A stretch of DNA of 64,000 nucleotides from Escherichia coli (GTDB lineage Bacteria; Pseudomonadota; Gammaproteobacteria; Enterobacterales; Enterobacteriaceae), in NCBI RefSeq assembly GCF_002854065.1, contig NZ_CP024147.1. One strand, given 5' to 3'. The position numbers are program-made. Below are positions 61,501-64,000 of this stretch, piece after piece. The stretch's first letter is position 1. The number at the start of each line of letters is the position of its first letter.

Positions 61501-64000
61501 CGGCACTGATAACCGTGTCTGAAACGCTTCCTCCGGCATTCACTCTCTGAAGACCACCACCGGTGACAGTAGTGTTGTTGGCGATACCGCCATTTTGTAT
61601 CCATTGTCCGCCGGTATTGGCCTCGTTATCCGGCCCATACTCCAGACCGGTACTGATGGTCATTCCGTTGGCCGTACCGAGAACAATCTGGTTGTCATGA
61701 TTTGTCAGTGTTCCGCCGCTCACGGTTTCTCCCGCCTGTACGACCGTGTCAGCAGCCAGTACCGGGACTGACGTGACAGCAGCAAGAGACAGCGCAACCG
61801 CCACACCGGTGCGTTTTCCCCGTGAGCGCGCCAGTTCGGAAGCCACCACCAGGGTGCCCGTAATGTGATTCCATACCAGCCTGTAGCTGGTGTTCAGATG
61901 TCGTTTCATCAGCTTTTCCTTACAGAGGGTGAATAAAAAAGCCGGTACCCACAAATGTGGATACCGGCAGGTACAAAACAGCATGGTCAGATAAAGTGGT
62001 TTTTCCCGGACATAAATGCTTCCCCTCTCTCATCCGCCAGAGAAGTATCAGTCCGTTGTGTGCAATTCCGTTCTGCATGATGAAGAGATTCAACTGCCTT
62101 TTCGCAGGCCATTAACCACTATAAACGATCGATAGCAACGATCGATACCTGTTTTATCGATTGTTTTACTCTATTAACAGCAAGACAGTCACGCAAGAGA
62201 AAGAGGTGGATATGAGGGGGGTGTATCATGTTTTCAGTTGGTTAACGCAATGTAATCAGGCATTTCCCTGGCAGACTGTTCAGAAGAAAATCCAGTTCCA
62301 TACAGCGCGGGCAACAGAGACCACCGAGTCACGGACGGCACGCAGAACCGTGCGTGCAACAGAGGCAATACAGACGCTCTCCGCCGTGTCAAATATCCGG
62401 TCCACCGCACCGGTAAACTGTTCACGGGCCTGAGACCGGACAGATTCCGTGCGCAGCTCGTCCTGCAGGCGGGTCATCAGGGGACTGGCGGCATGGTCGG
62501 GAAGCGCTGTCATGAGCGCACTGACCAGCGTATCCAGTTCCCAGCCGGTGCAGGCCGATACGGCCACAACCGGATGTACGGGCCGGAACAGCCGGAATAC
62601 CGCATCTGTTTTCTCACGAATGTTCTGTGCCTGTGCGGGAGAAGGCTGAATGCCGGCCATATCCCATTCATGGCAGGGCTCCGTTTTGTCGGCCTGCGTC
62701 ACCACAAACAGCACCTGCTGATGTCCCCGGTGCAGGATGTGTCGCCAGAAATACTCATCCACAGACAGGGCACGGTCATCGGCTTTAATCAGCCACAGTA
62801 CCAGGTCCAGTTCAGGCAGAATGTCACGGTACAGAGCTTCATACTCTGCATCCCTGTCCCGACTCTCGCCCACCCCGGGCAGGTCAGTGATAACCATGCT
62901 GTGACCGTGGCCACTCAGACGGAAGCGCCGCACTTCCCGGGTGCCGGCGTGAACATCACTGACCGGGGTGACCTCCCCCTGAAACAGTGCATTACAGAGT
63001 GAGGATTTACCGGCCCCGCTTTTACCCATAATGCCAATCACGGGTTCGTGACTGGTGAGTTTGCGCAGATGTTCCAGGATGTGACGGGAAAGTGAGTAAG
63101 GCAGGGAGGAGAGCGGTTTTTCAATTGCCTCAATGGCATCAGACGGATTCATACATGTATTCCCGGTGAAAAAAGACAAAACCCCGCGCACCGGAAAGGT
63201 GGCGGGGGATTCACGGAGATAATATCTGTCTGAAATTATTTAGAATGCACCTGGTGCACTGCAAAGGAAAGGCAATATTCCGTTCCTCCTCCTTGTCGTG
63301 AATACCCCAGGTATCTCACAATATACACCGACTTACTCCGGGGCTGCCTGAACCACAAGATTGCTGTAGAATTGCCCCCAATGATTCAGGTCCAAACCAG
63401 GCAAATGGATTAAAAATGACAAGTATTCAACAACGAGCAGAACTGCACCGCCAGATATGGCAAATTGCCAATGATGTCAGAGGTTCTGTTGACGGATGGG
63501 ATTTTAAGCAATACGTTCTGGGCGCACTTTTCTACCGTTTTATCAGCGAAAATTTTTCCAGCTATATTGAAGCCGGTGATGACAGTATCTGTTATGCGAA
63601 ACTGGATGACAGCGTAATTACTGATGATATTAAAGACGATGCCATCAAAACCAAAGGCTACTTCATCTACCCCAGTCAGCTTTTCTGCAACGTAGCTGCG
63701 AAAGCAAATACCAATGACAGACTGAATGCGGATTTAAACAGCATCTTCGTTGCTATCGAAAGTTCTGCTTACGGTTACCCTTCAGAAGCTGACATCAAAG
63801 GTTTGTTTGCTGATTTCGATACCACCAGTAACCGCCTGGGTAACACCGTTAAGGATAAAAATGCCCGCCTGGCCGCGGTTCTGAAAGGGGTTGAAGGGTT
63901 AAAGCTTGGCGACTTTAACGAACATCAGATTGACCTGTTCGGCGATGCCTATGAGTTCCTGATTTCTAACTATGCCGCGAATGCCGGTAAGTCAGGCGGC

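What the first reader, a model, noticed from the sequence alone, without database searches (positions are those of the whole stretch)
62110..62180. Ag43 regulatory region with two GATC sites and one GATT
About 210-250 bp upstream of the Ag43 start lies the cluster aaacGATCgatagcaacGATCgatacctgttttatcGATTg. Ag43 phase variation is known to depend on Dam methylation of three GATC sites overlapping the OxyR operator. Here the third position reads GATT, which could alter or bias the ON/OFF switch in this allele.
Basis: partly seen in the sequence, partly recalled or inferred. Interest (0 to 1): 0.4.

Follow-up and report, generated by a model that had tools for sequence, protein, structure and literature searches.

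The report
Ag43 switch missing one Dam site
This is the well-known Dam/OxyR on-off switch in front of the E. coli adhesin gene agn43, in a rare natural version where one of its three GATC methylation sites is destroyed by a single base change; this probably shifts how often the gene is switched on, but the effect has not been measured.

Summary
Ag43 (948 aa, intact) lies on the minus strand with its ATG at 61909. Two GATCs sit 218-253 bp upstream (62127-62130, 62140-62143), followed by GATT at 62159-62162, which reads AATC on the gene strand.

Ungapped comparison with K-12 and REL606, and the Rfam IS102/IsrC model, put this AATC at canonical GATC-I. That is the promoter-proximal site at the 5' end of the leader. 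Spacings are unchanged (19 and 13 bp), and no compensating GATC exists nearby.

The allele is rare:
- **Frequency of AATC at site I:** 18 of 5426 complete E. coli genomes. Fourteen share the window's island and a rare -10 variant (TAGAGT). Four sit on other backgrounds, so the change is recurrent.
- **Single-site loss generally:** at least 99 of about 6400 agn43 upstream regions (about 1.5%), spread over all three sites. It almost always hits the outer G or C.

OxyR half-site consensus matches are unchanged by the substitution. Dam acts at least 100-fold more slowly on AATC or GATT. The likeliest result is a two-site switch that still phase-varies but is biased towards OFF. This is inferred, not measured.

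It is a minor natural variant of a known system, of modest interest.

The parts
62159..62162 (-). Degenerate Dam site at the canonical GATC-I position. It reads AATC on the gene strand and GATT on the + strand.
   Evidence: In-register ungapped comparison with K-12 and REL606. Rfam IS102 alignment, where model position 3 is G and the window has A.
62140..62143 (.). GATC-II, intact Dam target.
   Evidence: It lies 19 bp from site I, as in K-12.
62127..62130 (.). GATC-III, intact Dam target.
   Evidence: It lies 13 bp from site II, as in K-12.
62120..62174 (-). Inferred OxyR operator. Two 8/10 matches to the OxyR half-site consensus: ATAGAGTAAAACAAT at 62174-62160 and ATCGTTGCTATCGAT at 62142-62128. 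A further, overlapping 8/10 match lies at 62146-62132.
   Evidence: Half-site scoring gives the same counts in the window, REL606 and K-12. The role as operator is inferred by homology to K-12.
62168..62173 (-). -10-like hexamer TAGAGT. The common allele and K-12 have TAGAAT.
   Evidence: TAGAGT was seen in 14 genomes with AATC and 2 with GATC. The promoter assignment is by homology; the simple promoter scan found no site.
62191..62196 (-). -35-like hexamer TTGCGT, 17 bp upstream of the -10-like hexamer.
   Evidence: Read from the sequence. It is positionally equivalent to TTGTCC in K-12. Inferred.
61928..62164 (-). agn43 5' leader, homologous to IS102/IsrC RNA (RF00124). It contains all three site positions. 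GATC-II and GATC-III form a hairpin in the model.
   Evidence: 71.5 bits against a gathering score of 46, model positions 1-206 of 206.
61941..61968 (-). Terminator-like hairpin of 12 pairs followed by a T run, at the 3' end of the leader, 32 nt before the ATG.
   Evidence: It is nearly identical in K-12.
59063..61909 (-). agn43-family gene, an intact 948-aa ORF (Ag43/Cah autotransporter adhesin).

Best explanation
This is the promoter, operator and leader of an agn43-family gene, governed by the Dam/OxyR epigenetic phase-variation switch. It is a natural allele in which a G-to-A transition has turned GATC-I into AATC/GATT. GATC-I is the promoter-proximal site, at the 5' end of the transcript.

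Shown here:
- the homology, the register and the spacing of the sites;
- that the other two GATCs are intact;
- that OxyR half-site consensus matches are unchanged;
- that the variant is rare, recurrent and real.

Inferred mechanism: OxyR still binds the unmethylated operator and represses. Dam can now place only four methyl groups on fully methylated DNA instead of six, and only two on hemimethylated DNA after replication instead of three. Methylation therefore excludes OxyR less effectively. ON cells should revert to OFF more often, and the population should be OFF-biased but still phase-variable. The linked -10 change (TAGAAT to TAGAGT) may further lower ON-state transcription.
For: Identity and register rest. 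No other GATC lies nearby.

The common allele carries GATC at site I:
- REL606, O157 cah and others have it.
- 117 of 120 metagenome contigs have all three sites.
- A G-variant 66-mer hits 3134 genomes.

The variant is real and shared: AATC is found in 18 of 5426 genomes.

OxyR half-site scores are 8/10 with either G or A.

Dam methylates AATC about 100-fold more slowly, and GATN sites at least 1000-fold more slowly, than GATC (PMC4417163).

Literature: methylation of the three GATCs abrogates OxyR binding, and OxyR binding blocks Dam (PMC2909390; PMC13337833). The number of GATC sequences determines how far methylation lowers affinity (PMC2909390 discussion).

The ORF is intact in the window and in 12 of 15 AATC isolates whose ORF could be read. 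In 13 isolates sharing the window's haplotype, the flanking island (mainly the Ag43 coding sequence) differs from the window by 0.7-2.3%. So the allele has persisted with a functional gene.
Against: - No switching, methylation or binding data exist for this allele.
- The papers with engineered single-GATC mutants (Wallecha 2002, Waldron 2002, Kaminska 2010) could not be read. The direction and size of the effect therefore rest on the general model and my recollection.
- The G-to-A change also alters the base recalled as +1 and lies inside an OxyR half-site, so it could change initiation or OxyR affinity in either direction.
- Two methylated sites may be fully sufficient to exclude OxyR, giving no phenotype.
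Confidence: 0.55

Rival explanations
1. Effectively neutral polymorphism. Two methylatable GATCs (II and III, both inside the strong downstream OxyR half-site) are enough for normal Dam/OxyR bistability, so the allele switches like the wild type.
For: Single-site losses occur at all three sites at similar low frequencies: 37, 21 and 38 genomes. The ORF is usually intact. The haplotype persists while the flanking island (mainly the Ag43 coding sequence) diverges by 0.7-2.3%. OxyR consensus matches are unchanged.
Against: All three sites are kept in about 98% of alleles and across the two divergent promoter families (PMC2808357). This argues for purifying selection on each site. The literature links the number of GATCs to the methylation-dependent drop in affinity.
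Confidence: 0.3
2. Decaying or silenced locus. Loss of GATC-I together with the weakened -10 hexamer leaves the gene essentially locked OFF and under relaxed selection.
For: Two rare changes lie 7 bp apart in the core promoter and operator. Ag43 is frameshifted or truncated in 3 of 15 AATC isolates, against 5 of 90 three-site metagenome alleles.
Against: The difference is not significant (Fisher p=0.086) and the isolates are not independent. The window's ORF and most others are intact at 948 aa, despite 0.7-2.3% divergence of the flanking island. Some of the frameshifts may be assembly errors.
Confidence: 0.1
3. Sequencing or assembly error in the window at position 62162.
For: None.
Against: The identical 66-mer is present in 14 independent complete genomes. 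The AATC variant is in 18.
Confidence: 0.01

Closest known systems
E. coli K-12 agn43 (flu) regulatory region: Dam/OxyR phase-variation switch with GATC-I, -II and -III
   Same: - -10-like hexamer position
- site spacing of 19 and 13 bp
- OxyR half-sites at the same offsets, each 8/10
- leader RNA (IS102/IsrC) ending in the same terminator-like hairpin
- downstream Ag43-family gene

   Different: Site I is AATC instead of GATC, and the -10 hexamer is TAGAGT instead of TAGAAT. The sequence between and after the sites belongs to the other promoter family. The leader is 237 nt against 204 nt, and megablast aligns only the last 94 bp with K-12.
Common non-K-12 agn43/cah regulatory allele (for example REL606, O157:H7 cah)
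   Same: In the 80-bp core the window differs from REL606 only at the -10 A/G and at site I G/A. The regulatory region is found in about 4000 of 5426 genomes.
   Different: Those alleles have all three GATCs.
Other natural two-site agn43 alleles found here (for example clone D i14 with GATT at site I; Z1323CEC chicken isolates with TATC at site III; the second Ecol_244 copy with AATC at site II)
   Same: Each has lost exactly one Dam site by a single substitution, usually at the outer G or C, and keeps an intact ORF.
   Different: The site or base affected differs. They sit on other islands and other Ag43 alleles.
Salmonella gtr and opvAB OxyR/Dam phase-variation switches
   Same: Competition between OxyR binding and Dam methylation of GATCs within OxyR half-sites (PMC2909390; PMC4856963).
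   Different: Those have four GATCs in two pairs and alternative OxyR sites, and OxyR also acts positively. They are not homologous to this region.

Membership tests
agn43 Dam/OxyR phase-variation regulatory region | Lies immediately upstream of an Ag43/Cah-family autotransporter gene | tested here: met
   NF033177 equivalog, 1982 bits, positions 1-948 of 948. The sites lie 218-253 bp upstream of the ATG.
agn43 Dam/OxyR phase-variation regulatory region | Sequence homology to the characterised K-12 regulatory region and leader | tested here: met
   Rfam RF00124 at 71.5 bits against a gathering score of 46. Ungapped core alignment.
agn43 Dam/OxyR phase-variation regulatory region | Three GATC Dam targets with conserved spacing inside the operator | tested here: not met
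   Only two GATCs are present. The first position reads AATC, with the spacing kept. This is the variant feature.
agn43 Dam/OxyR phase-variation regulatory region | OxyR binding site overlapping the GATCs | tested here: inconclusive
   Consensus half-site matches of 8/10 at the same offsets as K-12. A consensus count is not a binding assay.
agn43 Dam/OxyR phase-variation regulatory region | Heritable ON/OFF switching that depends on dam and oxyR | not testable with these tools
   Needs reporter fusions in wild-type, dam and oxyR backgrounds.
agn43 Dam/OxyR phase-variation regulatory region | Sigma-70 promoter initiating at or next to GATC-I | tested here: inconclusive
   The hexamers TTGCGT, a 17-bp spacer and TAGAGT lie at the homologous position, and the Rfam model starts 2 nt before site I. 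The simple promoter scan finds no site passing its thresholds. The transcription start was not mapped.
IS102/IsrC RNA (Rfam RF00124) | Score above the family's gathering threshold over the full model | tested here: met
   71.5 bits against 46, model positions 1-206 of 206.

The most novel reading that the evidence does not exclude
Loss of a single Dam site may be a recurrent, selected way of genetically retuning the set-point of this epigenetic switch.

Evidence consistent with that reading:
- Natural variants almost always change the outer G or C of GATC: 93 of 96 genome occurrences, with GACC the only inner-base variant.
- AATC at site I arose on at least five backgrounds.
- In strain Ecol_244 both agn43 paralogues have each lost a different site (I and II).

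On this reading the variants would be operators that Dam cannot mark at one site but OxyR can still bind, favoured in some lineages to lower the ON fraction.
Probability: 0.2. Interest if true: 0.55.

Novelty: new variant of a known kind. Interest (0 to 1): 0.3.

Why it matters
agn43 is the textbook Dam/OxyR epigenetic switch, and published accounts describe three GATC sites in both allele families (PMC2808357). About 1.5% of natural alleles carry only two sites, and the window's allele is one of the commonest of these. These alleles are ready-made natural material for asking how the number and position of methylation sites set switching rates. They also matter for predicting Ag43-dependent aggregation and biofilm behaviour of particular strains. 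The finding does not reveal a new mechanism.

Tried and rejected
- **MAFFT pairwise alignment with K-12.** It placed the window's GATC-III over K-12's GATC-II and opened a gap. I rejected it in favour of the ungapped register and the Rfam alignment.
- **Simple promoter scan.** It found no site. The promoter is therefore assigned only by homology.
- **Primary papers with engineered GATC mutants.** Wallecha 2002, Kaminska 2010 and the Marinus & Casadesus review are not held. Six literature searches found no text reporting switching rates of single-site mutants.
- **Genome-contig scan.** Uninformative. It gave one chance hit and two E. coli-like contigs inside a Collinsella MAG.
- **Association of the AATC allele with Ag43 pseudogenes.** 3 of 15 against 5 of 90, Fisher p=0.086, with non-independent samples. 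Not accepted.
- **Is the window from strain Ecol_244?** The 421-bp regulatory stretch is 100% identical. Over 6.1 kb of the island, though, the window differs from Ecol_244 at 48 positions, and no record matches the 25-kb query at 99% or more over its full length. The source is another strain.
- **Full 37-bp OxyR consensus scoring.** It did not discriminate between registers. Half-site scoring was used instead.

Full report
**1. What is in the sequence**

The + strand of the window reads aaacGATCgatagcaacGATCgatacctgttttatcGATTg. GATC lies at 62127-62130 and 62140-62143, and GATT at 62159-62162. These are the only GATCs between 61700 and 62500.

The adjacent gene is on the minus strand, 61909..59063, an intact 948-aa ORF. 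It is an Ag43/Cah autotransporter: NCBIfam equivalog NF033177, 1982 bits, full length. Upstream of it, also on the minus strand, is a YeeP-like GTPase gene (62280-63152). A type I R-M hsdM gene starts at about 63416 on the + strand. The same gene order is annotated in Ecol_244.

Read on the gene's strand the region is TAATAGAGTAAAAC-AATC-GATAAAACAGGTATC-GATC-GTTGCTATC-GATC-GTTTATAGTGG. The core pattern is expected 0.01 times by chance.

**2. Register with the known switch**

A default MAFFT alignment to K-12 slipped by one site. An ungapped comparison anchored on the shared TAATAGA[A/G]TAAAAC gives a clean register:
- K-12 and REL606 both have GATC at offsets 19, 38 and 51.
- The window has AATC, GATC and GATC at those offsets.
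- The spacings are therefore 19 and 13 bp in all three.

The Rfam family RF00124 (IS102/IsrC RNA) gives independent support. It matches K-12 at 252.6 bits and the window (61928-62164, minus strand) at 71.5 bits, E=9e-12. Model positions 1-6 are ACGAUC, against the window's ACAAUC.

So the degenerate site is canonical GATC-I, the promoter-proximal site at the 5' end of the leader. My recollection, which I could not verify, is that Wallecha et al. 2002 mapped +1 to the G of this GATC. The Rfam model's 5' end, two bases upstream, is consistent with that.

The leader model pairs GATC-II with GATC-III in a hairpin. It ends in a 12-bp terminator-like hairpin (61968-61941) just before the ribosome-binding site.

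**3. How unusual is it?**

The 421-bp regulatory stretch has homologues in 4019 of 5426 complete E. coli genomes, at 6433 places. The haplotypes seen are:

| -10 hexamer | Site I | Examples |
|---|---|---|
| TAGAAT | GATC | REL606, O157 cah and others (common allele) |
| TAGAGT | AATC | the window and Ecol_244 |
| TAGAAT | AATC | TW10690, PRO_A, CUVET20-PYO2 (300444 also carries GAAT and AATC but differs at the first base of the TAATAG motif) |
| TAGAGT | GATC | 23AR0885 |

All four combinations exist.

A 37-mer that can only be seeded through the AATC finds 18 genomes and 19 places. Fourteen carry TAGAGT. All 13 of those examined sit in the same island: hsdRMS, a GTPase gene (the same protein in 11 of the 13), Ag43, then DUF932 WP_001234702. 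Four carry TAGAAT and lie in other contexts with other Ag43 alleles, including a 1039-aa one.

Over 860 bp, the window group and the three TAGAAT+AATC alleles that could be aligned (TW10690, PRO_A, CUVET20-PYO2) differ from one another by 22-36 positions. They differ from REL606, which carries GATC, by 21-23 positions. The fourth, 300444, was not aligned; it is counted as a separate background because its genomic context differs. The change is therefore recurrent or has moved by short-tract recombination.

Within the window's group, the flanking island (mainly the Ag43 coding sequence) differs from the window by 0.7-2.3%. The haplotype is therefore not a very recent clone.

**4. Survey of all three sites**

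*Metagenome sample.* A metagenome scan with the three sites masked as N returned 120 contigs. Of these, 117 have GATC at all three sites, two have lost site II (TATC, GACC) and one has lost site III (TATC).

*Complete genomes.* I concatenated 37-mers carrying each of the 12 single substitutions of each site, on the main sequence backgrounds. Megablast could then seed only through a variant.

| Site | Genomes with the site lost | Variants |
|---|---|---|
| I | 37 | AATC 18, GATT 17, TATC 2 |
| II | 21 | AATC 9, TATC 7, GACC 3, GATT 2 |
| III | 38 | TATC 25 (largely one chicken clone), GATT 6, AATC 4, GATA 3 |

Spot checks confirmed the decoding: clone D i14 has GATT at site I, Z1323CEC0001 has TATC at site III, and the second Ecol_244 copy has AATC at site II.

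At least 99 of about 6400 places (about 1.5%) are therefore two-site alleles. Of the 96 genome occurrences, 93 change the outer G or C. The three sites are strongly but not absolutely conserved. This agrees with the published statement that both allele families carry three GATCs with similar spacing (PMC2808357).

**5. Likely mechanism**

*Established model* (PMC2909390; PMC13337833; PMC4872104): OxyR binds the unmethylated operator. This represses agn43 and shields the GATCs from Dam, giving the OFF phase. Methylated GATCs exclude OxyR, giving the ON phase. After replication, hemimethylated DNA is the window in which the two compete.

*In this allele:*
- The two best OxyR half-site matches, at offsets 7 and 39, score 8/10 in the window, REL606 and K-12 alike. 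The G/A position falls on a consensus position that neither base matches. OxyR binding is therefore probably retained (inference).
- Dam acts on AATC about 100-fold more slowly, and on GATN sites at least 1000-fold more slowly, than on GATC (PMC4417163). Site I is effectively unmethylatable.
- The van der Woude laboratory notes that the number of GATCs determines whether methylation lowers affinity enough.

I therefore expect a still-bistable switch in which the ON state is less well protected, giving more ON-to-OFF switching and an OFF bias. The -10 change from TAGAAT to TAGAGT (5/6 to 4/6 match to the consensus) may add lower ON-level transcription. None of this has been measured. I could not obtain the papers on engineered site mutants.

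**6. Rival explanations**

- **Neutrality.** Two sites may suffice. This is quite possible, given that such alleles persist with intact ORFs.
- **Silenced, decaying locus.** This is weakly suggested by 3 of 15 disrupted ORFs against 5 of 90. The difference is not significant (p=0.086), and the window's own ORF is intact.
- **Sequencing error.** Excluded.

**7. Verdict**

It is a rare, recurrent, single-nucleotide natural variant of a thoroughly characterised system, of modest interest. The most novel reading not excluded is that single-site losses are selected tuning mutations. Two observations point that way: the losses are biased to the outer bases of GATC, and both agn43 paralogues of strain Ecol_244 have lost a site.

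Noticed in passing
window 61928-62164 (-), hairpin 61941-61968: The agn43 5' leader matches the Rfam family IS102/IsrC RNA. It ends in a strong terminator-like hairpin followed by a T run, 32 nt before the start codon. This suggests premature termination or attenuation between promoter and gene. GATC-II and GATC-III pair as an RNA hairpin in the model.
   Followed up: partly
window 62168-62173 (-): The -10-like hexamer is TAGAGT, where K-12 and the common allele have TAGAAT. This second rare change lies 7 bp from the lost Dam site. It was seen in only 16 genomes (14 with AATC, 2 with GATC). All four combinations of the two SNPs exist.
   Followed up: partly
L145 3618-3621 (Ecol_244, NZ_CP019020.1 near 320,100): Strain Ecol_244 shares the window's regulatory haplotype. 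It has a second agn43 copy with an intact 948-aa ORF whose GATC-II reads AATC, so both of its copies are two-site alleles. STK78-E, another carrier of the window's haplotype, has a second copy with GACC at site II.
   Followed up: partly
E. coli complete genomes: Natural single-site losses in agn43 operators hit the outer G or C of GATC in 93 of 96 genome occurrences (AATC, TATC, GATT, GATA). The only inner-base variant is GACC, in 3 genomes. This is more skewed than I would expect from mutation bias alone, but independent events were not counted.
   Followed up: partly
window 53824-53899 (+) and 53900-64000: The only tRNA found is a CAT-anticodon tRNA just after rpoD and the next ORF. By position I take it to be ileX. 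The Ag43 island appears to start right after it. Across the window and the Ecol_244/NT1N31 annotations, the island carries:
- small toxin/antitoxin-sized ORFs;
- a JAB/RadC-like gene;
- an antirestriction gene;
- a DUF932 gene;
- Ag43;
- a YeeP-like GTPase gene;
- a type I R-M system whose hsdS differs between carriers.
   Followed up: partly
L143 and L144 (Collinsella sp. MAG Map_57_008 contigs): Two short contigs binned into a Collinsella MAG carry E. coli-type agn43 regulatory regions, which is probably binning contamination. L143 is of the K-12 type, with GATC-III reading GATA.
   Followed up: no
L009, L011, L137 (NT1N31, EPSSH018, ZH142): In three carriers of the window's haplotype the Ag43 ORF is frameshifted or truncated, with the first stop after 319, 154 and 269 aa. 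I could not tell whether these are real pseudogenes or long-read assembly errors.
   Followed up: partly
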